Assembly (NCBI GenBank): GCA_964626665.1
Contig: CAZVGK010000039.1
Coordinates: 4,818 to 23,318, forward strand
DNA length: 18,501 nucleotides
From: an uncultured Gemmatimonadota bacterium
GTDB taxonomy: Bacteria; SM23-81; DAOVCL01
Direction of reading: 5' to 3'
Shown here: piece after piece, positions 1 through 18,489 of the stretch
Numbering within the stretch: the first letter of the stretch is position 1
Layout of the letters: each line of letters starts with the position of its first letter
Program-made: the position numbers and the translations under genes
Notes under the pieces: generated by a model
Seen by the model: the letters and a program-made list of their open reading frames with translations, nothing else
Databases searched by the model: none
Told to the model about the DNA's origin: nothing

Positions 1-79
1 TCAGCTCCTCCCCCTTCTCCTCCCTCAGCTCCTCCCCCTTCTCCTCCCTCAGCTCCTCCCCCTTCTCCTCCCTCAGCTC
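1..79. repeat. Perfect 24-bp tandem repeat (3 copies plus 7 nt) inside argS, encoding (LREEKGEE)n
   Basis: TCAGCTCCTCCCCCTTCTCCTCCC at 1-24, 25-48 and 49-72, then TCAGCTC at 73-79. Confidence 0.95.
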
Positions 80-694
80 TTGGGCGAGCTCCACCAGATA
101 ATCCCCCTTGTATCCATCAGCAGGGAAAGGGAAGGAGGGGGCGAACAACTGTTCGTATCTGGCCTGGAGGGACTTTCCCAATAGCATCATCTGATTTCCG
201 GCATCGTTGAAGTAATACTCCCTCTCCACCCTGTATCCGGCCCATTGCAGCAGATTGGCTAAAACATCCCCTAAGGCGGCCTGCCGACCATGGCCCACGG
301 TGAGGGGGCCGGTGGGATTTGAGCTGACAAACTCCACCTGCACCCTTTTTCCCTCTCCCAGGTTACATCTCCCGTATTCCTTGCCGCTCTCAAATATCTC
401 CCGCAGGGAGGCCACTATTTCCTTCCGGGATAGAGTGAAGTTGATGAACCCTGGGCCAGCCACCTCAGCCTTTTCAATCTGTTCTGGGGAGTAGCTTAGC
501 TTATTTAGTATCTTCTCTGCTATCCTCCGCGGGTTTTCCCCTATCTGGGAGGCAAGGGAAAAGGCAGTGCTGGTGGTCAGGTCGCCCCAACTGGACTCTC
601 GGGGGCTGGTCAATTCTATATCCTCTCCAATTTCCCAACCACATTCCTCTATGGCTTCCCGCAGCTTATCTTGAAGATATACTTTTATCCTCAT
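1..694 (-). CDS. argS: Arginyl-tRNA synthetase, 5' part (runs off the window start)
   Basis: Manual translation from ATG at 694: MRIKVYLQDKLREAIEE...WGDLTTSTAFSLA...AEVAGPGFINF...VQVEFVSSNPTGPLTVGHGRQAALGDVLANLL...EYYFNDAGNQM...FPADGYKGDYL. These are ArgRS motifs (GPGFIN, NPTGPL-xxGH, YxNDxGxQ). Absent from the ORF track because there is no stop in the window. Confidence 0.96.
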   Translation of the reverse strand, partial: MRIKVYLQDKLREAIEECGWEIGEDIELTSPRESSWGDLTTSTAFSLASQIGENPRRIAEKILNKLSYSPEQIEKAEVAGPGFINFTLSRKEIVASLREIFESGKEYGRCNLGEGKRVQVEFVSSNPTGPLTVGHGRQAALGDVLANLLQWAGYRVEREYYFNDAGNQMMLLGKSLQARYEQLFAPSFPFPADGYKGDYLVELAQELREEKGEELREEKGEELREEKGEEL

Positions 695-9438: not shown

Positions 9439-12267
9439 GTGGGTAGCAAAATGCCGAAATTAGACGCTTTAATCAAGGAGATTGAGGTTCTCCTTTACAA
9501 AGAGAAGGGGCTGGACAGGGCGGAGGCAAAGGTTGATGAGGCTACAGAAAAGATAATCACTTCACAATTGCAAGACTCTCCTCAAGCAGCACAGGTATAT
9601 ACTCTGGCAACGGAAGTCAAGATAGAGATTGGTAAATATGTGGAGGCAGAGCCTTATGCATTTAAGGCATTTGAGATTCTGAAGGACTCCGCCGAGAACA
9701 GGCTAAAGGGGAGAGTTCAATGGTGTATAGGAAGGATTTACAAAAACCTGGGTGATATGGATAAAGCCCGTATATACTTAGAGGATTCTCGAAGCACATA
9801 TCGCACCATTGGATACAGGCAGGGTGAATTGGAGGCATTGAATGGTTTAATTCACCTTGATTTTATTGGATCCGAATGGTCATCTGCCAAGAAGAGATTG
9901 AAATATGCTTACCAAATAAATCAGGAGTCAGGCGATCGGCGAGGGATGGCCCTTTGCCTCACAAACCTGGCGACCGTATCTATACTTCTCGGGGAGCATA
10001 GTGCTGCTGAGAAGACCCTCTTGGAGAGCATCAAAATCAAGGAGAAGTTAGGGGATCCGCTTCTTTTGACCCACAGTTGGCTCTCGCTTGCTCGCTTATA
10101 TCTGAGGGAGCGGAGATGGTCGGAGGCCTCTCGGCTCATCCAGAAGGCGAAGAAGGTAAGTGAGGAACATACCCTTTCACGCGAGTTGGCGATGAGCCTG
10201 GAGAGTGAAGGGGAGTTATACTTTGAGCGGAAAGAATATGTCAAGGCCGAGAAGAGTTATCTGGATGGTTTGAGGGTAGGGGAGCGGATATCTCCTGAAG
10301 GGGATGTCGTCGCAGAGCTGTGTCGCAAGCTTGCTGATTTGTATTCAGCTACAAAGGAGCCTGATAAGGCGATTGAATACGGCCATAGGGCTCTGGAGGT
10401 CTCAACCAAGCTTGGAGACAGATTCGAACAGGGGTGCTGTCATCGGGCGTTGGCTGTGGCTTATGGTTTAAAAGGTCTAAAGGATAAAGCCCAAGAGAAG
10501 TTTGCTAAATCTGTCTCCATTTTCAAGTCAATTGGGGAGCGGTTTGAATTGGCTTATAGTCTTCTGACAAATGGAGAGTTGAGCGGGAGGGTTGGTCTGC
10601 TTAGGGAGGCTTATGCCCTTTTTTCTCAGATTGAAGGCGCTGTTTTTTATAAGGCGCTTGCCGAACTCCAGTTGGCTAAGGTTGACCCTTCTCTTAAGGC
10701 TGAAATCCAATATCTACGAGAGGCTGAGGATATATTTCGAGCTAAGGGGGAAGCCGAGAAGCTCAAGGAGGTTGAGGTCATAAAGGCTGAGCTTAATAGG
10801 AGGCTAACTCAGCCTACAACCAAGAAGTATGAGGTCTTAAAAGGCCTGGCCTCACCGGAATTGGGGGAGGTATTTGAGGGGGTGGTGAGGGAGCTTAAGG
10901 CAACCAGGGGATTTGTTGCTTATCGGAGGGATGCCAGCAATGGGGAAATGAAAGTAGAGAGGAGCCACAATCTCACTGAGGAAGAGGCGAGGAAACTTCT
11001 CTCCCTGTTGACCGATAACAACGGTTTTCAGCCAGGGGAGCCTTTCATCCTCTATGACACCGAGTTGGACAATCGTTTTTCCTCTTTGGGAGCAGGTAGC
11101 GTAATGATCACCCCTTTTTCCAGTAAGACCGAAGGGAGAATAGACGGTTTCCTGTATGTGGATCGGCAAAAGCAAAAGCAAAAGGATGGGGAACCGTTCT
11201 TAGACAAGGAATATGACCTCTTCTACTATCTCTCAGAGAGGGTGGGCAAGGCGATTTCGGAAAAGAGACAGGGGGAGTTGGAAGAGGAGTTGAGTGAGTT
11301 AAAGAGGAGTATGAAGGGATCAGGGGTGCTCACCCATAATCCTCAGATGTTGAAGATATTGAAACTGATAGAGTTAGCCCAAGGTTGTGATGCGCCCACC
11401 CTCTTGACTGGGGAGACAGGCACCGGAAAGGACTTCATCGCCCGGATTATCCATCAGGGGAGTGCCAGGAAGGATGCGGGCTTTGTGGAGATACACTGCG
11501 GGGCAATTCCCAAAGACCTGGTGGAGTCAGAACTATTTGGTTATGAAAAAGGTGCCTTTACCGGGGCTGTCTCTCGCAAGCTGGGACGGCTTGAGCTTGC
11601 AGAGGGAGGAACCCTCTTCCTCAATGAGCTAGGAGAACTGTCAGAATCTACCCAGGTGAAGCTGTTGAGATTTTTGGACACCACCGAGTTGGAGAGGGTA
11701 GGGGGTAACAGAACCATAAGGGTAAACACGAGGGTAATAGCGGCTACCAACAAGGATTTAAAGGTAGAGGTGGAAAATGGGACATTTCGGAAGGACCTCT
11801 ACTACAGGTTGAATGTGCTATGTGTGGAATTACCTCCATTAAGGGAACGGAAAGAGGATATACCCCCTTTGGCCCATCATTTTATAAAACTTTATGGAGA
11901 CAAATATGGGAAGAAGGTCCAAGGGATGGCTCCCGGAGTCCTCCAGGCAATGATGGAGTATGACTGGCCGGGGAACATAAGGGAGTTGGAGAATATGATT
12001 GGGACGATGGTAATAGCAACCAGGGAGGGGGAAGAGATTAGCGTAGGGCTATTGCCAAAGCAGGTTAAAAAAATGCTTCAGCCGGAAGAGGGAGATGCTC
12101 CTACGCTGCCCAGCAAACTCGCCTCTGTTGAAAAAGAAGCCATTTGGGATGCCTTAGAGCGGACTAATGGAATAAAGACAAAGGCAGCCCAAATCTTAGG
12201 AATACATGAGGCTACGCTACGGGGCAAGATAAAGAAATACAAGTTAGAGAAAGTAATGGACAATTAG
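9439..12267 (+). CDS. Sigma54-dependent enhancer-binding protein: TPR array, GAF-like domain, AAA+ domain, Fis-type HTH
   Basis: GAGGAG RBS and GTG start; ~450 aa of TPR-like helical repeats (e.g. IGRIYKNLGDMDKARIYLEDS); GAF-like segment (GSVMITPF...IDGFLYVD); Walker A GETGTGKD, ESELFGYEKGAFTGA, FRKDLYYRLN, WPGNIRELEN; HTH ALERTNGIKTKAAQILGIHEATLRGKIKKY. No receiver domain. Confidence 0.95.
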   Translation: MGSKMPKLDALIKEIEVLLYKEKGLDRAEAKVDEATEKIITSQLQDSPQAAQVYTLATEVKIEIGKYVEAEPYAFKAFEILKDSAENRLKGRVQWCIGRIYKNLGDMDKARIYLEDSRSTYRTIGYRQGELEALNGLIHLDFIGSEWSSAKKRLKYAYQINQESGDRRGMALCLTNLATVSILLGEHSAAEKTLLESIKIKEKLGDPLLLTHSWLSLARLYLRERRWSEASRLIQKAKKVSEEHTLSRELAMSLESEGELYFERKEYVKAEKSYLDGLRVGERISPEGDVVAELCRKLADLYSATKEPDKAIEYGHRALEVSTKLGDRFEQGCCHRALAVAYGLKGLKDKAQEKFAKSVSIFKSIGERFELAYSLLTNGELSGRVGLLREAYALFSQIEGAVFYKALAELQLAKVDPSLKAEIQYLREAEDIFRAKGEAEKLKEVEVIKAELNRRLTQPTTKKYEVLKGLASPELGEVFEGVVRELKATRGFVAYRRDASNGEMKVERSHNLTEEEARKLLSLLTDNNGFQPGEPFILYDTELDNRFSSLGAGSVMITPFSSKTEGRIDGFLYVDRQKQKQKDGEPFLDKEYDLFYYLSERVGKAISEKRQGELEEELSELKRSMKGSGVLTHNPQMLKILKLIELAQGCDAPTLLTGETGTGKDFIARIIHQGSARKDAGFVEIHCGAIPKDLVESELFGYEKGAFTGAVSRKLGRLELAEGGTLFLNELGELSESTQVKLLRFLDTTELERVGGNRTIRVNTRVIAATNKDLKVEVENGTFRKDLYYRLNVLCVELPPLRERKEDIPPLAHHFIKLYGDKYGKKVQGMAPGVLQAMMEYDWPGNIRELENMIGTMVIATREGEEISVGLLPKQVKKMLQPEEGDAPTLPSKLASVEKEAIWDALERTNGIKTKAAQILGIHEATLRGKIKKYKLEKVMDN

Positions 12268-12306
12268 AAGTAAAATCTACTACGCTGAACAGCAATTCAG
12301 ACACTG

Positions 12307-12336
12307 ACCACTTGAGAAAGCTCAAGTGGTTTTTTT
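12307..12336 (+). terminator. Intrinsic terminator of the activator operon
   Basis: ACCACTTGAG-AAAG-CTCAAGTGGT followed by a T tract. Confidence 0.9.
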
Positions 12337-12370
12337 ATTCCCCAGGGTTGAGTTATTGGGTTCAACATCT

Positions 12371-12474
12371 TCGTATTTTTCCACGGATTTGTCGTTTATA
12401 TCCACGGCTATCTAAGTTTCAGGGGAAAAAGCAATTACAGTAAATTTAGATTTTTGTGTCGTGATAATCTACGA
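12371..12474. promoter_or_regulatory. Three putative upstream activator sequences (TCGT-N8-ACG)
   Basis: TCGTatttttccACGG (12371-12386), TCGTttatatccACGG (12392-12407, 21 bp later) and TCGTgataatctACGA (12459-12474), about 120-220 bp upstream of the predicted sigma54 start site. Confidence 0.65.
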
Positions 12475-12566
12475 ATTCTGCTAAACTCCAAAAATGGAGA
12501 CATTTGCTAGCAGATATAACTCCAATAAAAATAACCACTTAAAATTTTCGGTTTTGATAACATAAC

Positions 12567-12582
12567 TGGCACAGAATTTGCT
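12567..12582 (+). promoter_or_regulatory. Sigma54 (-24/-12) promoter
   Basis: TGGCAC-AGAAT-TTGCT matches TGGCAC-N5-TTGCW exactly; it follows a sigma54 activator gene and an AT-rich spacer. Predicted start site about 12593. Confidence 0.88.
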
Positions 12583-12592
12583 AAGGTTATAA

Positions 12593-12880
12593 GTATAGAT
12601 GTCTCCGCGTCCGTGGCTTGAAAGGCAGTCAAGAAAGAAGCCGGTGCTGCTTTGTTTGAGGACTCTGGAATTCTACGAATCACAGAGTCCTCCATCAAGG
12701 GGTTTGGGGGAAAGGATGTGCTTTCCCCCAAGGAGTAACAGGATTACGGTGTGAGCTGGCAGAGCACCGTAATCCGCCATAGGGGCGATAGCCCCTTGGA
12801 AGTTTGTGAACGAAGTGAACAAACTTTGCTTGGTGGTTGGAGGCAGCATTTGGGGGAACAAAATTAGCGGAGATGCCCCG
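12593..12880 (+). ncRNA. Candidate sigma54-dependent structured non-coding RNA (~280 nt, family not recognised)
   Basis: Nested stems 12600-12608/12867-12875, 12643-12652/12841-12850 and 12692-12699/12829-12836, plus local hairpins 12658-12692, 12704-12731, 12741-12775, 12781-12796 and 12800-12826. No RBS-led ORF. Confidence 0.55.
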
Positions 12881-12917
12881 CAGGCTCTCCCTTGCCTGCC
12901 ACCCCTGCCAAGAAGGA

Positions 12918-12951
12918 ACACGAATCACACGAATAGACGAATTTGCACGAA
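12918..12951. repeat. Degenerate short tandem repeat with ACGAA core, 4 copies
   Basis: ACACGAAT-C-ACACGAAT-A-GACGAAT-TT-GCACGAA. Confidence 0.6.
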
Positions 12952-12970
12952 GAGATAGAAAGATCACATC

Positions 12971-13033
12971 GAGGTGGCACAACCCCGATTTTGCCACCTA
13001 CCTTTGCCGTAAGAATCGGGGTTCTGATGGCTC
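12971..13033. repeat. REP doublet (REPIN-like), copy 1
   Basis: GAGGTGGCACAACCCCGATTTTGCCACCT followed by the inverted partner GCCGTAAGAATCGGGGTTCTGATGGCTC. Confidence 0.7.
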
Positions 13034-13381
13034 GGTGGGGGTACTGTCAGCTAAGGGCACCTACCAGCTCAGACTAAATTTCTATTTTCTTAGGGTTCCT
13101 GCCCTACCAGCAGGGGAAAGTTTCATTTTTAATTCTCAATTTTTAATTGCTTTTTTCAGTGAGGTTCCGTGGTGAATTGTCACCAGGAGGCAAGCGAAGG
13201 CAGGGTAGAGGTGACCCGATAGTCTCCTTATGGTGCCAGAGGGGGAGGACTATTGATAAGGAGGGGTGCCCTCGGATGAGCTTGGTCACGCAGAATTCCG
13301 GTTTGCCACTCGCATTGTCTCAACAACCTGGCGGGTCTCATCAGGGGTCTGGGGCCCGCCAGGACTCCTATCACCTTTAAC

Positions 13382-13442
13382 GAGGTGGCAGAACCCCGAT
13401 TCTGCCACCAGGATTGCGTCAGAACAGGGGTTCTGACGCCTC
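13382..13442. repeat. REP doublet (REPIN-like), copy 2
   Basis: GAGGTGGCAGAACCCCGATTCTGCCACC followed by GCGTCAGAACAGGGGTTCTGACGCCTC; clearly homologous to 12971-13033. Confidence 0.75.
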
Positions 13443-13479
13443 TGATCGAGACCTTCCACCATAGGAGAAGCGTCAGGTT

Positions 13480-13647
13480 ATGGAATCCGACTATAAAAAA
13501 CCGAAGCCAAAAATGAGCCTGGAGCTTGACCAGGGAAAACCTCAAGAGAAGAAGAGCCTCTGGCAGAAGATTAAAGAATTCTTCGCTCAGGAACCCGAAG
13601 AACAAGGTGCAGAATACTGGAGGAACAGAGACCCAAGTGACTGGTAA
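13480..13647 (+). CDS. Small hypothetical protein, 55 aa (not in the ORF track)
   Basis: MESDYKKPKPKMSLELDQGKPQEKKSLWQKIKEFFAQEPEEQGAEYWRNRDPSDW*; AGGAG at 13463-13467; purine-rich coding-like composition; amphipathic SLWQKIKEFF segment. Confidence 0.6.
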   Translation: MESDYKKPKPKMSLELDQGKPQEKKSLWQKIKEFFAQEPEEQGAEYWRNRDPSDW

Positions 13648-13667
13648 GGGAATCTGCTATAAATTCC

Positions 13668-13696
13668 TTGACTTGGGAGGTTGAGAGGGGTATAAA
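13668..13696 (+). promoter_or_regulatory. Sigma70-type promoter upstream of the secreted-protein cluster
   Basis: TTGACT (13668-13673), 17-nt spacer, TATAAA (13691-13696). Confidence 0.6.
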
Positions 13697-13841
13697 TTTG
13701 TGAGGCACATTTTACCAAGGGGGTGCAATGAAGGAACAGATAAGATTTTTGGCGTTAGTGCTCGTATGGGGGCATAGGAGAACAAAGCCACATATACCAG
13801 TTTTGCCCCAGGAGAAATTTAGTTAAAACAAGGAGGGAGAA

Positions 13842-15992
13842 ATGCGTAAGATCAGTATAGGATTTGTATTCTTGGCAATTATCCTGGCCGCTATTCCCCT
13901 ATATGCCTCAGGTGCGGGGGACTACAAGCTTGGGTTGACCTCGGTAAATCATGGAGAGGCTGAGCTTATTGATGATACTGGTTTGAGGCATCACATAGTC
14001 TCAACTAATGGTCTGGTCATTGATACTATGACCTGGTGTAATGGTATCCCTTTTGCTGATTTGAGCCAATACCTGTGCCCTTATGACAGCATGGTGAATT
14101 GGTTCAGGCCTCTTGCCCCTTGTTCCCTGTATGAAGTTGGCGGTATGTTTGCCAGCTCAGGGACTGCAAAGCTCTTTGTCTGTAGGTATGGGTACTTCTC
14201 CAGTGATTTCTCCTTCCCCTGGCCAGTAACCGATAATGAGTTGCCTGGCCCAGCCGAGTGGGATATCTCTGGAACTGGTGGCTGGGAGGAGAAGGACTTC
14301 AGGGAATATCCTTCGGATCAAGGATTCATCTTACAATTCCCAGGGGACAGCCTCTTCGCGGTAGGCTTTGGGTCCGACAGTGAGGCAAAGCCTCATATTT
14401 TTTATGACGATTATAGCCTGCATCCTGCGATCTATCCTGACGAAAATGGTGTATTCCATTGTACCCAACATTGGCGAATCACGTGGTGTCATGATGGCCA
14501 TTGGCAGTGGAATTTGAGACATCCATGTGAGCCCCCACCCCCTTGTATTTGGTGTCCTGAGCTCAATATGAGGGCGGTTGTCAACTATTATCAGGGTGTT
14601 CCCCCCTTCTTACAGGTTCTGTGGCAGAGGAATAATACCTGGTTGAGGGAGAATATCAAGATAACTGCCTTGCTGTTCGATTTTGATGGCTGGATTGCTG
14701 AGGCTACCCTTCATTATACGGTCAATGGTTCAGGGGACACATCTGAGGTCCCTATGAGCATAGAGGCGGAAGAAGGAAACAGATTTCTTGCTGCCGGTTA
14801 TCTTCCAGGTCAATTTTCCTCGGGTGATACTATAACCTACTGGTGTACCTGTGTGGACAACGATGGCAAGCCCAACAAATGGGTGGGAGATGCGGTTAAA
14901 TCCTTTGTCATTAAGAAGCCGCAGAACCCTGGGGCACAGATACTACTCGTAGGGGACGGGAATGTTAGCAAGCAGAGGGCCAGATACTATGAGAATCTGT
15001 TGGACAGGTTGGGCTACTCCTATGAACCCACCTGGTTTGCTGAGGAGAATTATGGGATAGACAGCTCAGTTGTTCTCCATACCTATGAGGGAATGGGATG
15101 GGATGCTATAATCTGGTTTGGATGGGGGTGTGGGAGCCTCCCTCGGCCGGATGGTTTGGAGGCTGACCATCCACTTATCAGGTATCTGGATAGTGGAGGG
15201 AGGCTTTTTCTTGCTGATCAGGACTATTTCTGGAAGAAGGGTATAGAAACTGGGGTTGAGATCAGCTTTGAGCCTGGAGACTTTGCCTATGACTATCTAG
15301 GGGTTCAATCCTGTATCAGCGATCCCAATATGCAGGATACCATCAGCCTTGGGGATACGATATTCTATGGGGTAGATGCTGATGACCCCATATCTGGGAA
15401 TTTCTATGAGACCGCTGTAGAGTTACATCCGAGATGTGTTGGGGTTGCCAATTGGGCTGACTATACTGAGGCTACAGCCCAGGGTGTGAACATCTTCAAG
15501 GGAGGAAAAAGCGAAGAATACAGTGGTACTAGGTTAGAGGGTGCCGAAGGGTTCAGGACTGTTTTTCTGCCCTGGTGTTTTGAGGCAATTGTCGACTGTG
15601 CGGATACCAACATCCTCACCCTCCAGGCGGATACGCTAATGTTGAATATTCTGAATGATTGGTTTGAGCTGGAAGGTATGCAGAGAATTGAGGCGGGGGT
15701 TGTGCCTCGTTCTTTTTCCTTATCTCAAAACCATCCCAATCCGTTCAATTCTAATACAGCTATCAGCTATCAGTTGTCAGCGATCAGGCCGCACCGCACC
15801 ACCCTAAAAATCTACAATATATTAGGAGAGGAGGTGATAACCTTAGTTGACCAGGAGCAAAGGGTGGGGAGGTATGAGGTGGTCTGGGATGGAAGAAACA
15901 ACCAGGGAAAGGAGGTGACCAGTGGCGTATATCTTTACCGGCTAAAGGCCGGCGAATTTACCGCAGCAAGGAAGATGGTTTTGTTAAGGTAG
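13842..15992 (+). CDS. Secreted multidomain protein with FlgD-Ig/T9SS-type C-terminal domain
   Basis: AGGAGG RBS; signal peptide; Cys/Trp-rich N-terminal domain; Ig-like segment; alpha/beta domain (ILLVGDG...DAIIWFG...LIRYLDSGGRLFLADQD); C-terminal FSLSQNHPNPFN...KIYNILGEEVITLVD...VWDGRNNQGKEVTSGVYLYRLKAGEFTAARKMVLLR. Confidence 0.9.
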   Translation: MRKISIGFVFLAIILAAIPLYASGAGDYKLGLTSVNHGEAELIDDTGLRHHIVSTNGLVIDTMTWCNGIPFADLSQYLCPYDSMVNWFRPLAPCSLYEVGGMFASSGTAKLFVCRYGYFSSDFSFPWPVTDNELPGPAEWDISGTGGWEEKDFREYPSDQGFILQFPGDSLFAVGFGSDSEAKPHIFYDDYSLHPAIYPDENGVFHCTQHWRITWCHDGHWQWNLRHPCEPPPPCIWCPELNMRAVVNYYQGVPPFLQVLWQRNNTWLRENIKITALLFDFDGWIAEATLHYTVNGSGDTSEVPMSIEAEEGNRFLAAGYLPGQFSSGDTITYWCTCVDNDGKPNKWVGDAVKSFVIKKPQNPGAQILLVGDGNVSKQRARYYENLLDRLGYSYEPTWFAEENYGIDSSVVLHTYEGMGWDAIIWFGWGCGSLPRPDGLEADHPLIRYLDSGGRLFLADQDYFWKKGIETGVEISFEPGDFAYDYLGVQSCISDPNMQDTISLGDTIFYGVDADDPISGNFYETAVELHPRCVGVANWADYTEATAQGVNIFKGGKSEEYSGTRLEGAEGFRTVFLPWCFEAIVDCADTNILTLQADTLMLNILNDWFELEGMQRIEAGVVPRSFSLSQNHPNPFNSNTAISYQLSAIRPHRTTLKIYNILGEEVITLVDQEQRVGRYEVVWDGRNNQGKEVTSGVYLYRLKAGEFTAARKMVLLR

Positions 15993-18425
15993 CTTAAATT
16001 TAAGAGAGGAGGAAGGAACGATGACAGACAAGGATTGGTTGATGAATGTGGAGAATGAGACAAGGGGAGGTAAAAATGGTTATTAGAAAGCTTTTGAGGG
16101 AAATTGTTCTTGTGGTCTGTTTCTTTATCTTAATTTCCCCCCAAATTCTCTTCGCCTGGACAACGCCGGTGAATATCTCCAATACCTCAGGACACTCAAG
16201 GTACGCTTCATTAGCGGTGGATAGGAATGGTCATATTCATGTGGTTTGGGAGGATGATACCTCAGGGAACAACGAGATTCTCTATTGCTTTTGTGATGGA
16301 GAGTCCTGGCATCCTTCCATCGATATCTCAAATGATGCCACCGACTCGGAAAGGTCGGACATAACGGTGGATGCCTTCGGACAACTCCATGTGGCCTGGA
16401 TAGATCACCAGTCCGGGGAGATATACTGGACTTTTTACGCTGAAACCTCCTGGACCTCTCCGGTGAATATCTCCAATAATCCAGGTTACTCCACCTGCCC
16501 CAGTTTAGCGGCCGATGATTCAGGCAGAGTCTATATCGCTTGGCACGACATTGGGGGGGAGCAATCCGATATCTACTTCAGCATTTATGATGGAACCTCC
16601 TGGTCACCTCCCCAGAATGTCACCAATGATGCGGTGAGCTCAGCCTATCCCGATATAGCCGTTGACTCTAAGGGATGTGTGCATTTGGTGTGGATGAACT
16701 ATGGTGCAGATATAGAGGCATATTACTCGAAATATGATGGGCACTCCTGGTCAAGTTGGGTTAATGTCTCTAATCTTGAAGGATACTCCTGCGATCCAAA
16801 GATAGCCCTGGATTCTCAGGATCATCCTCATGTCGCCTGGGAGGAACGTGAGCACGGTTACGAGGTTTATTACACCCATTTCGATGGAGAGGATTGGACT
16901 GTTCCCTATAAGCTTTCCGGCAGTGACTGTCATAATCCCGCTATTACGCTTGATTCTAAAGACAAAAGCCATGTAGTATGGGGTGGGCCAGGGAATGGAA
17001 TTTACTATACCTTTGGAAATGATACTTCTTGGTTTTCTCCCATTGATATTACAGATTCTTCTGAGGTAATTTGTTTATTGGCTGACATAGGGGTAGATTC
17101 AACCCATCTTCATGTGGTGTGGACCAAAGCCATTGATCGGACCCGTGCTGAGATTTACTACAGCAGCCATAAGTTAAGTGGAATAGAGCCAGAGCGGTGG
17201 AGGCCATTTCCAAGTGGGTATAAGCTGGAACAGTGTTATCCTAATCCGTTTAACCCGACCACTACCATCCGCTACCACCTCCCAGCGGTCAGCAGTTAGC
17301 TTAAAGATCTACAATATCTTAGGAGAGGAGGTGATAACCTTAGTGGACCAGGAGCAAAGGGCGGGGACGTATCAAGTTGTCTGGGATGGAAGAAACAATC
17401 AAGGAAAGGAGGTGACCAGTGGAGTATATCTTTACCGGCTAAAGGCCGGCGAATTTACCGCAGCAAGGAAGATGGTCTTGTTAAGGTAGCTTAAATTTAG
17501 AGAGGAGAAGAGAACGATGACAGACAGGGATTGGTTGATGAATGTGGAGAATGAGACAAGGGGAGGTAAAGATGAATATTAGAAGAAAGCTTTTGAGGGA
17601 AATTGTTCTTGTAGTCTGTTCCCTTATCTTAGTCCCCGTAAATCCCCTCCTCGCCTGGACAACGCCGGTGAATATCTCCAACACCTCAGGACACTCAAAC
17701 TATGCTTCCTTAGCGGTGGACAAATATGGTCACATTCATGTGGTTTGGGAGGATGACACCTCAGGGAACAACGAGGTTTTGTATTGTTTCTACAACGGAG
17801 ATCATTGGTCTGCTCCTCTTAATATCTCCAACGATCCAACGGACTCGGAAGCATCGGACATAACGGTAGATGCCCTGGGACAACTCCATGTGGCCTGGAT
17901 AGATTACCAGTCTGGGGAGATATACTGGACTATTTACAATGGAACCTCCTGGTCTCCTCCCCAGAACATCTCCAACAATCCCGGGCATTCTACCTGTCCC
18001 AGCTTAGCGGCTTATGATTCAGGCAGGGTCTTCATAAGCTGGCATGACATCAGAGGGCAATCTGACATCTACTTCAGCAGCTACGATGGGACCTCCTGGT
18101 CATCCCCGCAGAATGTCACCAATGATCCGCAGGACTCAGCCTATCCCAATATAGCCGTTGACTCCAAGGGGTGTGTGCATTTGGTATGGATGAACTATGG
18201 TTTGGACATAGAGGCATATTACTCAAAATACGACGCGAACTCCTGGTCAAGCTGGGTTAATATCTCCAATCTTGTGGGATACTCTTGTGATCCAAAGATA
18301 GCCCTGGATTCCCTGGATCATCCTCATGTGGTCTGGGAGGAGAGACAGTGGGGAGACCAGGAGGGGTATCACGTTTACTATGCCCATTTCGATGGGGAGA
18401 ATTGGGCTACCTCCTACAAGCTTTC
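15805..18425 (+). repeat. Tandem duplication with ~1497-bp period (C-terminal domain DNA + spacer + beta-propeller N-terminal region)
   Basis: ~15805-16915 aligns with ~17302-18425; stop codons end at 15992 and 17489, and spacers and start regions are near-identical. Confidence 0.9.
16076..17489 (+). pseudogene. Secreted BNR/sialidase-like beta-propeller repeat protein whose C-terminal domain is split by a frameshift at ~17285-17300
   Basis: Likely ATG at 16076 after GGAGG; six WxxPxNIS...P.(I/L)AxD..G..H(V/L)xW repeats; PNPFNPTTTIRYHLPAVSS* stops at 17299, and the rest of the domain (SLKIYNILGEEV...RKMVLLR) continues in another frame to 17489. Confidence 0.82.
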
Positions 18426-18489
18426 AACTGGAAGTAAAAATTTTAACCCTTGTATATTAAAGCCTAGAGCCCGAAACTGCAGAAGGTAG
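17572..18489 (+). CDS. Paralogous secreted beta-propeller repeat protein, apparently truncated, no C-terminal domain
   Basis: ATG at 17572 after GGAGG; highly similar to the 16076 gene up to YKLS...NP, then an unrelated tail LKPRARNCRR* 12 nt before the window end. Confidence 0.75.
   Translation: MNIRRKLLREIVLVVCSLILVPVNPLLAWTTPVNISNTSGHSNYASLAVDKYGHIHVVWEDDTSGNNEVLYCFYNGDHWSAPLNISNDPTDSEASDITVDALGQLHVAWIDYQSGEIYWTIYNGTSWSPPQNISNNPGHSTCPSLAAYDSGRVFISWHDIRGQSDIYFSSYDGTSWSSPQNVTNDPQDSAYPNIAVDSKGCVHLVWMNYGLDIEAYYSKYDANSWSSWVNISNLVGYSCDPKIALDSLDHPHVVWEERQWGDQEGYHVYYAHFDGENWATSYKLSTGSKNFNPCILKPRARNCRR

What the first reader, a model, noticed from the sequence alone, without database searches (positions are those of the whole stretch)
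12593..12880. ~275-nt multi-branched RNA starting at the predicted sigma54 start site
Seen: 5' TGTCTCCGC (12600-12608) pairs with 3' GCGGAGATG (12867-12875). Inside, GGTGCTGCTT (12643-12652) pairs with AGGCAGCATT (12841-12850), and CCATCAAG (12692-12699) with CTTGGTGG (12829-12836). The innermost stem encloses four hairpins of 11, 11, 6 and 8 bp, with a 10-bp side hairpin at 12658-12692. The long-range stems use G-U pairs that work on the plus strand, favouring a plus-strand RNA over a DNA cruciform. Several GGA motifs lie in loops or linkers, which could mean CsrA/RsmA sponging (speculative). Alternative: a non-autonomous mobile element, since GGGGTTTGGGGG...CCCCCAA-type hairpins also occur in such elements.
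Basis: partly seen in the sequence, partly recalled or inferred. Interest (0 to 1): 0.82.

Follow-up and report, generated by a model that had tools for sequence, protein, structure and literature searches.

The report
Mobile hairpin repeat inside sigma-54 leader
The striking branched fold is two things joined: a conserved leader of a sigma-54-driven small-protein gene, and a 170-base mobile hairpin repeat that landed in one of its loops and supplies most of the fold.

Summary
It is not one evolved RNA.

**The insert.** Bases 12657-12826 are one copy of a five-hairpin dispersed repeat.
- It has at least 43-46 copies in each of three same-genus genomes.
- Its stems covary strongly.
- It is present or absent at orthologous sites with sharp ends.
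- Alone it gives z -8.7 and 85 of the 125 kcal/mol.

**The leader.** The two outer stems belong to a roughly 135-150-nt leader domain found at 12 loci in the same three genomes.
- All 12 lie 12-20 nt after a TGGCA(C/T)-N5-TTG(C/T) motif.
- 11 of 12 lie just downstream of a sigma-54 activator gene.
- 11 of 12 lie upstream of a conserved gene of about 55 codons.
- Only the window and one G001 locus carry the insert.

The leader domain is much better conserved than the neighbouring activator gene (median 82% against 55%). However, its folding z-scores are unremarkable and its covariation is not significant.

GGA motifs are not enriched, so the CsrA-sponge idea finds no support. No RNA data were available.

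The parts
9439..12267 (+). TPR-type sigma-54 activator (enhancer-binding protein), 942 aa
   Evidence: Pfam Sigma54_activat 1.6e-63, AAA_lid_14, HTH_8 and TPR repeats.
12306..12331 (+). Terminator-like hairpin with a T-run after the activator gene
   Evidence: It is the only plus-strand terminator-like site found in 12200-13900.
12567..12582 (+). Sigma-54-type promoter motif TGGCAC-N5-TTGCT, predicted start about 12592-12593
   Evidence: Sequence. The same motif lies 12-20 nt before the first stem at 12 of 12 family loci. rpoN is present.
12600..12608 (+).
   Evidence: 98.9-100% of cells paired in relatives; one pair shows G-U, A-U and G-C.
12609..12619 (+). Conserved GTCCGTGGCTT block of the leader domain (identical in the 7 sequences; varies or is partly missing in 2 of the 12)
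   Evidence: Alignments A1 and A6.
12620..12642 (+). 5' strand of the alternative long-range helix (P-alt); partly decayed in the window
   Evidence: Duplex -19.7 kcal/mol here, against -24 to -33 in insert-free relatives.
12643..12652 (+).
   Evidence: 96-97% of cells paired.
12657..12826 (+). Inserted copy (subfamily 1) of the roughly 170-nt five-hairpin dispersed repeat.
   Evidence: Absent from 10 of 12 related leaders. Family counts. Covariation. Alone: z -8.72.
12830..12840 (+). Near-invariant P3-loop motif TTGGTGGTTGG (one of 12 has TTGGTAGTTGG).
   Evidence: Alignments A1, A6 and A7.
12841..12850 (+). P3 3' arm
12867..12875 (+). P1 3' arm
12883..12900 (+).
13187..13380 (+). Second conserved leader block (module B). 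Found downstream of the 5' domain at several family loci.
   Evidence: 80-90% identity to G000:C2, G001:C20, G001:C122 and G001:C89; 73-83% to four G002 loci.
13480..13647 (+). Conserved small ORF (55 aa, ends in DPSDW) with a Shine-Dalgarno sequence. It is the first gene after the leader.
   Evidence: Five paralogues in G000. Found downstream of the leader domain at 11 of 12 loci. No Pfam family.

Best explanation
The region is a chimera of a conserved leader and a mobile repeat.

**(1) The leader.**
- A sigma-54 promoter, presumably fired by the TPR-type activator encoded just upstream, starts a transcript near 12593.
- That transcript runs about 890 nt to a conserved 55-codon gene at 13480.
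- Its first 135-150 nt, not counting the insert, form a conserved leader domain shared by 12 such activator/promoter/leader/small-gene modules in three species of one genus.
- The domain consists of a 5'-terminal stem P1, a hairpin P3 with a near-invariant UUGGUGGUUGG loop, and a longer helix P-alt that crosses P1. P-alt and P1 are therefore either a pseudoknot or two alternative folds.

**(2) The insert.**
- A 170-nt five-hairpin repeat inserted into the apical loop of P3, before G000 and G001 split or in their common paralogue.
- It folds on itself, so P3 and P1 can still close around it. That is what produces the 'multi-branched RNA'.
- The repeat moves as DNA. It inserts just 3' of an AAYTTA-like target, with no inverted ends and no clear duplication. 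This fits single-strand (HUH/Y1-type) transposition best, but no transposase could be tied to it.

**Shown:** the composite nature, copy numbers, covariation of the repeat, presence/absence at orthologous sites, and linkage of the leader domain to promoter, activator and small gene.

**Inferred:** transcription, RNA-level function of the leader domain (most likely control of stability or translation of the small gene), and the transposition mechanism.
For: **The insert is a passenger**
- The paralogue G000:C2 aligns to 12568-12656 and 12826-13381 with adjacent ends, skipping 12657-12825.
- 10 of 12 family members lack the insert.

**The repeat family**
- nhmmer finds 46-50 full-length copies in G000.
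- The covariance model finds 46, 46 and 43 matches in G000, G001 and G002 (46 candidates were scored per genome). It finds 0 in the 4 other same-phylum genomes and one weak match each in 2 of the 54 remaining genomes searched.
- Over 41 copies and 58 pairs, 87.3% of cells pair and 34 pairs change on both sides. 0 of 500 shuffles reach any measure, and slid controls give 34-47%.

**Mobility**
- Empty site in G002:C61 against filled G000:C2:40175, with no duplication.
- Empty site in G001:C102 against filled G000:C40:22071. The 7 nt AACTTAG on the left flank equal the element's 3' end.

**Source of the stability**
- Insert alone: z -8.72.
- Core paralogues: z -2.06 and -0.30.

**The leader family**
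- 2, 3 and 7 loci in G000, G001 and G002, plus one hybrid locus in G002 that is left out of the counts below.
- Promoter motif at 12 of 12.
- Activator gene upstream at 11 of 12; the twelfth is cut off by a contig end.
- Small ORF downstream at 11 of 12.
- Median identity of the leader domain is 0.82, against 0.55 for the last 600 nt of the activator gene and 0.50 for the spacer. The leader domain is the higher in 53 of 55 pairs.
- No plus-strand terminator-like site lies between promoter and small ORF.
Against: - No RNA data exist for this organism in the runs listed, so the transcript and its start are predictions.
- Covariation in the leader domain is not significant. With 10 insert-free members, 94.5% of cells pair, but 72 of 500 shuffles reach that, and only 1 pair changes on both sides. 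The 7-sequence set gives the same picture.
- Core paralogues do not fold clearly better than shuffles. Conservation could therefore be at the DNA level or due to gene conversion.
- The outermost stem P1 appears in the minimum-energy fold of only 1 of 10 insert-free members. P-alt appears in 8 of 10.
- None of the 8 Y1-transposase-like ORFs is flanked by the repeat's ends.
- The window's own insertion has only paralogous empty sites, and their loop sequence differs by 1-2 nt. Its exact ends are therefore known only to about +/-3 nt.
- The same-site insert in G001:C122 may be an orthologue or a close paralogue. The genes after its small ORF differ.
Confidence: 0.78

Rival explanations
1. One reading: the whole 275 nt is one purpose-built multi-branched non-coding RNA, perhaps a CsrA/RsmA sponge, made from the sigma-54 promoter.
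For: - The fold is real and very stable.
- The same insert at the same place is kept at 89% identity in G001:C122.
- A weak CsrA-like ORF exists, at 26.4 bits against a cut-off of 27.
Against: - 10 of 12 related leaders lack the interior.
- The interior is a repeat with at least 46 copies, found in both orientations relative to neighbouring genes: 26 same, 13 opposite and 11 mixed of 50, by crude ORF calls.
- GGA is not enriched. 203 of 1000 shuffles have as many, 7 of the 10 motifs lie in the repeat, and at most 2 are fully unpaired.
Confidence: 0.04
2. The insert has been co-opted. The five-hairpin element is a structured RNA module that works in host transcripts (processing, stability or insulation), and its copy in the P3 loop now contributes to regulating this particular leader.
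For: - The element has strand-specific features typical of functional RNA folds: GNRA-type loops (GAAA, GUGA, GAGA, GUAA, GCAA); a tandem G.A flanked by covarying pairs; and an 11-nt loop kept between subfamilies whose stems differ completely.
- 20 of 46 copies sit right after a same-strand ORF and 19 of 46 right before one.
- The leader copy is retained in two species.
Against: - The same features also suit single-stranded DNA hairpins recognised by a transposase.
- The orientation bias is only about 2:1.
- 10 of 12 leaders work without the insert.
- There are no expression data.
Confidence: 0.1
3. The outer 'leader domain' has no RNA-level role. It is conserved as DNA, for example as a binding site for a shared protein downstream of the promoter, or is homogenised by gene conversion among paralogous modules.
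For: - Covariation is not significant.
- z-scores are -2.06 and -0.30.
- A hybrid locus, G002:C98, joins the 3' half of this domain to the 5' half of another leader type, which shows recombination among modules.
Against: - 94-95% of cells stay paired, against 41-60% when partners are slid.
- Changes are overwhelmingly G-U-compatible, one-sided substitutions.
- In several members P1 starts exactly at the predicted +1.
- The plus strand folds 20 kcal/mol better than the minus strand.
Confidence: 0.15

Closest known systems
REP / REPIN / BIME elements and their RAYT (Y1/HUH) transposases. Abstracts seen of PMC3116915, PMC3337134 and PMC3733652; details beyond the abstracts are recalled.
   Same: - High-copy, extragenic, hairpin-forming and lineage-specific.
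- Often sits just downstream of genes.
- No transposase gene inside.
- The genome holds Y1-type transposase ORFs.
- Mosaic arrays occur with other hairpin modules in the same spacer.
   Different: - It is 170 nt with five different hairpins, not a 20-40-bp palindrome or an inverted REP doublet.
- There is no unpaired GTAG or CGTC tag. GACG...CGTC lies inside the first stem.
- No Y1 gene is flanked by its ends.
Non-autonomous IS200/IS605 derivatives (palindrome-associated elements). Recalled; no paper read here.
   Same: - No terminal inverted repeats and no clear target duplication.
- Inserts 3' of a short specific target.
- Strand-specific subterminal hairpins.
   Different: - The left and right hairpins are unlike each other.
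- No TnpB-type gene is in the genome.
- No full-length parent element was found.
Sigma-54-dependent regulatory RNAs encoded next to their activator, such as CrcZ after cbrB in Pseudomonas and the Qrr RNAs with LuxO in Vibrio. Recalled; the listing shows LuxO/Qrr papers only as titles and abstracts.
   Same: An activator gene is followed by a sigma-54 promoter that drives a structured RNA.
   Different: - Here the RNA appears to be a roughly 890-nt 5' leader of a small protein gene, not a free sRNA.
- There is no terminator after the domain.
- There are no A-rich or GGA repeat motifs.
- There are 2-7 paralogous modules per genome.
CsrB/RsmY/RsmZ-type CsrA sponges (defining features recalled).
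   Same: A multi-hairpin RNA with some GGA motifs.
   Different: - GGA is not enriched.
- Most GGA motifs lie in stems or in the mobile insert.
- csrA in this genome is only a sub-threshold match.

Membership tests
Sigma-54-dependent promoter | GG at -24 and GC at -12 with fixed spacing (TGGCAC-N5-TTGCW) | tested here: met
   TGGCAC-N5-TTGCT at 12567-12582. The motif is kept at 12 of 12 family loci. There are 28 strict matches genome-wide.
Sigma-54-dependent promoter | rpoN and an activator (bEBP) present | tested here: met
   Sigma54_DBD ORF on C12. Sixteen strong activator genes in the genome. An activator gene lies directly upstream at 11 of 12 loci.
Sigma-54-dependent promoter | Transcript start 11-12 nt after the GC, dependent on rpoN | not testable with these tools
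   No RNA run is listed for this DNA.
CsrA/RsmA sponge RNA | Many GGA motifs, mostly exposed in hairpin loops | tested here: not met
   10 GGA against 7.9 +/- 2.0 in shuffles (203 of 1000 shuffles have as many). Most lie in stems, and 7 of 10 lie in the insert.
CsrA/RsmA sponge RNA | csrA in the genome | tested here: inconclusive
   One 82-aa ORF scores 26.4 bits; the Pfam cut-off is 27.
Classical MITE | Terminal inverted repeats | tested here: not met
   The ends GACGTTTCGG... and ...GAGCTAAGTTC are not inverted copies of each other (alignments).
Classical MITE | Target-site duplication of fixed length | tested here: not met
   No duplication at the G002:C61 empty site. At G001:C102, 7 nt are shared, but they equal the element's own conserved 3' end.
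REP/REPIN with RAYT | Short palindrome or inverted doublet with an unpaired GTAG or CGTC tag (abstract of PMC3733652) | tested here: not met
   Five unlike hairpins. GACG/CGTC is paired inside hairpin A.
REP/REPIN with RAYT | Cognate Y1 transposase gene flanked by the same repeat | tested here: not met
   8 Y1_Tnp matches. None is flanked by the repeat; one copy lies 650 nt downstream of one of them.
IS200/IS605-type non-autonomous element | No inverted ends, no duplication, insertion 3' of a short specific target | tested here: met
   Two empty/filled pairs. The left flank is semi-conserved as TAAYTT in the alignment.
IS200/IS605-type non-autonomous element | Ends shared with an autonomous TnpA (with or without TnpB) element | tested here: not met
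   No PF07282 match. The Y1 loci lack the ends.
Any Rfam family | Match at or near a family's gathering score | tested here: not met
   No match at gathering score in the window. Only chance-level matches at E up to 10 in the window stretch, and at E up to 1 in 14 related loci.

The most novel reading that the evidence does not exclude
The 135-150-nt leader domain is a new pseudoknotted regulatory RNA. A 5'-terminal stem crosses an 18-bp helix, and the hairpin loop UUGGUGGUUGG is nearly invariant. The domain is shared by a paralogous set of activator / sigma-54 promoter / small-protein modules (2-7 per genome). It would act as a common post-transcriptional checkpoint, through ligand or protein binding or by switching between P1 and P-alt, placed on top of module-specific transcriptional activation. 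The five-hairpin mobile element that invaded its loop would itself be a structured RNA module that host transcripts tolerate or exploit.
Probability: 0.2. Interest if true: 0.65.

Novelty: new member of a known kind. Interest (0 to 1): 0.42.

Why it matters
**For the scan.** A spectacular folding z-score at a promoter can be produced by a passenger repeat. Copy counting and comparison with paralogues separate the two within a few steps.

**For biology.** Two undescribed objects remain.
- A genus-restricted, strongly covarying 170-nt five-hairpin mobile element. It inserts precisely without inverted ends or duplication, often in the few bases between genes of an operon.
- A conserved leader domain common to a family of activator / sigma-54 / small-protein modules in an uncultured sediment bacterium. 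Earlier scan notes call it a Zixibacteria relative; I did not test that name.

The leader domain offers a testable case of RNA-level control layered on sigma-54 activation. Neither object matches an Rfam family.

Tried and rejected
- **Rfam.** No match at gathering score in the window, and no credible match at E up to 10 in the window stretch or up to 1 in 14 related loci.
- **RNA evidence.** No RNA holder is listed. Contigs of 4 DNA runs laid on 12400-13900 gave no joint across 12657-12826. Contigs break inside the repeat at 12728 and 12775, so they show neither an empty-site variant nor its absence.
- **Metagenome pattern scan** with two invariant leader motifs. 7 stretches matched: one is the same genome's C2 copy, and 6 are chance matches in unrelated sequence.
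- **P3 loop pairing with the ribosome-binding region of the small gene.** Duplex energies there (-7.8 to -15.0) are no better than for other leader windows (minima -13.0 to -15.8). Rejected.
- **TnpB/IscB guide-RNA idea for the repeat.** There is no PF07282 match in the genome.
- **Link to Y1 transposase genes.** None found.
- **Covariance model from the 7-sequence alignment with the insert.** It was rebuilt from the 5 sequences without the large insert.
- **Earlier scan notes by sequence.** Nothing for either repeat subfamily and nothing near the finding.
- **G001:C122 in the per-member fold script.** Not evaluated, because the script stopped on a failed pattern.

Full report
**1. Observation**

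The three long-range stems, the side hairpin and the four inner hairpins are at the coordinates given. All of them appear in the plus-strand minimum-energy fold of 12593-12880. That fold has -125.2 kcal/mol, z -6.49, and 0 of 200 shuffles fold as well. The minus strand gives -105.6 kcal/mol, z -7.40. A TGGCAC-N5-TTGC motif at 12567-12581 predicts a sigma-54 start near 12592-12593. No Rfam family matches.

**2. Surroundings**

- Upstream, at 9439-12267, lies a 942-aa TPR-type sigma-54 activator. A terminator-like hairpin follows it at 12306-12331.
- The next long gene, 13842-15992, encodes a secreted protein with a FlgD_ig/T9SS-type C-terminus.
- The 1.5-kb spacer between them is a mosaic of sequences repeated elsewhere in the genome.

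**3. The interior is an insertion**

A paralogous locus, G000:C2, matches 12568-12656 and 12826-13381 with adjacent ends and lacks 12657-12825. Among 12 related leaders in three same-genus genomes, only the window and G001:C122 carry this segment.

The segment belongs to a repeat family of about 170 nt.
- nhmmer finds 46-50 full-length copies in G000, depending on the cut-off.
- A covariance model finds 46, 46 and 43 matches in G000, G001 and G002 (46 candidates were scored per genome). It finds none in the 4 other same-phylum genomes, and one weak match each in 2 of the 54 remaining genomes.
- Across 41 copies, a five-hairpin structure of 58 pairs is 87.3% paired. 34 pairs and 135 cells change on both sides. 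0 of 500 shuffles reach any measure, and slid controls give 34-47%.
- The loops include GNRA types. A tandem G.A is flanked by covarying pairs. The 11-nt loop of the third hairpin is kept between two subfamilies whose stems differ.

Two orthologous comparisons show sharp presence/absence.
- G002:C61 is empty where G000:C2:40175 is filled. There is no duplication, and the insertion follows TAATTA.
- G001:C102 is empty where G000:C40:22071 is filled. The left flank AACTTAG equals the element's 3' end.
- A third site is filled in both G000 and G001.

There are no inverted ends. By crude ORF calls:
- 20 of 46 copies follow a same-strand ORF end;
- 19 of 46 precede a same-strand start;
- 12 of 46 do both;
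- some upstream ORFs end at the TAA in the loop of the first hairpin.

Relative to flanking ORFs, orientation is same/same in 26, opposite/opposite in 13 and mixed in 11 of 50.

The genome has 8 Y1-transposase-like matches and no TnpB-type match. None of the Y1 genes is flanked by the element's ends.

**4. Where the stability comes from**

The insert alone gives -85.1 kcal/mol, z -8.72. Insert-free members of the outer part give z -2.06 (G000:C2) and -0.30 (G002:C18). It therefore exists only because of the insertion.

**5. The outer part is a real, conserved leader domain**

A covariance model built from five members without the large insert finds 12 clean members and one hybrid. The clean members number 2 in G000, 3 in G001 and 7 in G002. 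The hybrid is G002:C98. It finds none in the 10 other genomes searched.

| Feature | Count |
|---|---|
| TGGCA(C/T)-N5-TTG(C/T) 12-20 nt before the first stem | 12 of 12 |
| Sigma-54 activator gene ending 179-299 nt upstream on the same strand | 11 of 12 (the twelfth is cut by a contig end) |
| Homologue of a 50-56-aa ORF 250-650 nt downstream | 11 of 12 |

- In the window the ORF is at 13480-13647 and has no Pfam family.
- rpoN is present.
- The domain is far better conserved than its neighbours. Median pairwise identity is 0.82, against 0.55 for the last 600 nt of the activator genes and 0.50 for the spacer. The domain is the higher in 53 of 55 pairs.
- No plus-strand terminator-like site lies between promoter and small ORF. 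I therefore read the domain as the 5' end of a leader about 890 nt long.

**6. Structure of the leader domain**

- P1 (12600-12608 with 12867-12875) and P3 (12643-12652 with 12841-12850) are kept in all members.
- RNAalifold and single-sequence folds prefer a longer helix, P-alt.
- P-alt is in the minimum-energy fold of 8 of 10 insert-free members. P1 is in that of 1 of 10, and in that of the window, where the 5' strand of P-alt has decayed.
- Duplex energies are -24 to -33 kcal/mol for P-alt (-19.7 in the window) and -7 to -16 for P1.
- P1 and P-alt cross. They are either a pseudoknot or alternatives.
- On 10 insert-free members, 94.5% of cells pair, against 41-60% when slid. But 72 of 500 shuffles reach that figure, and only one pair changes on both sides. 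The 7-sequence set is similar.

The structure is therefore consistent and conserved, but it is not proven by covariation. The sequences are too alike.

**7. CsrA idea**

GGA occurs 10 times, against 7.9 +/- 2.0 in shuffles. Seven of the 10 lie in the insert and most are paired. The only CsrA-like ORF is below the Pfam cut-off. The idea is not supported.

**8. Expression**

No RNA run is listed. DNA contigs neither show nor exclude an empty-site variant. Transcription, the start site and any RNA-level function remain predictions.

**9. Comparison with known systems**

*The insert.* It behaves like REP/REPIN/BIME or IS200/IS605-derived non-autonomous elements: extragenic, hairpin-rich, without inverted ends or duplication, and target-specific. 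It differs in three ways.
- It has five unlike hairpins.
- It lacks an unpaired GTAG or CGTC tag (definition from the abstract of PMC3733652).
- It has no identifiable partner transposase.

*The leader.* The layout resembles activator-adjacent sigma-54 RNAs such as CrcZ or the Qrr RNAs (recalled). Here, though, it appears to be a 5' leader of a small protein gene and is present in several paralogous modules.

*Earlier scan notes.* Notes on this genome describe BIME-like hairpin mosaics and REP/RAYT-type repeats (e1-1212897, e1-1212898). Another describes a small repeat that parks between genes and rewrites gene ends (e1-1459052). My results agree with that general picture. None of those notes covers this repeat family or this leader.

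**10. Verdict**

- The interpretation as one 275-nt multi-branched sigma-54 RNA is only partly supported.
- What remains of interest is a new mobile five-hairpin repeat and a new, still unproven, conserved sigma-54 leader domain.

Noticed in passing
window 13480-13647: Conserved small ORF of 55 aa (Lys-rich N-terminus, acidic C-terminus ending in DPSDW) with a Shine-Dalgarno sequence. It has 5 paralogues in G000, each after a large TPR-type sigma-54 activator. It has no Pfam family.
   Followed up: partly
window 13187-13380: Second conserved leader block (module B). It is 80-90% identical at G000:C2, G001:C20, G001:C122 and G001:C89, and 73-83% at four G002 loci. It contains a 9-bp hairpin, CCTGGCGGG...CCCGCCAGG. 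Structure was not analysed.
   Followed up: no
window 12970-13040 and 13381-13445: REP-like hairpin doublets (GGTGGCAGAAC...GTTCTGCCACC, GCGTCAGAAC...GTTCTGACGC), with about 40-100 BLAST hits in the genome. The same hairpin type sits between P3 and the 3' arm of P1 in 7 of 10 members of the leader family that lack the 170-nt insert.
   Followed up: partly
window 13118-13183: Another short dispersed repeat, with about 35-42 BLAST hits in the genome.
   Followed up: no
window 12922-12950; also G000:C2, C12 and C15 leaders: Array of 3-4 CACGAAT heptamers. In the C12 and C15 leaders the same array is present in the opposite orientation (ATTCGTG).
   Followed up: no
G000:C9, C12 and C15: A second leader type follows TGGCAC-N5-TCGCA promoters after three other TPR-type activators, upstream of paralogues of the same small ORF. 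Its first helix (CAGGCAGAGGG with CCCTTTGTCTG) resembles P-alt. G002:C98 is a hybrid of the two leader types.
   Followed up: partly
window 12667-12685 against L018 (G001:C122) 494-535: The loop and inner stem of the insert's first hairpin are inverted between the two species (TTCTACGAA against TTCGTAGAA). This suggests a hairpin-tip inversion.
   Followed up: no
window 15805-18489: Tandem duplication of about 1.5 kb carrying two BNR_4-domain genes (16046-17299 and 17542-18489), 83-94% identical including their upstream regions.
   Followed up: no
window 13669-13698: Near-consensus sigma-70-like TTGACT-17-TATAAA lies between the small ORF and the 716-aa gene, so the large gene may have its own promoter.
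   Followed up: no
G000:C40:22244 onward (L006): One subfamily-1 repeat copy is inserted immediately before a sequence that looks like the 5' end of a tRNA gene. This was judged by eye and not checked with ARAGORN.
   Followed up: no
window 1-93: A CT-rich 12-nt-period (24-nt unit) tandem repeat at the window's start. It lies within an ORF that is open on the minus strand.
   Followed up: no
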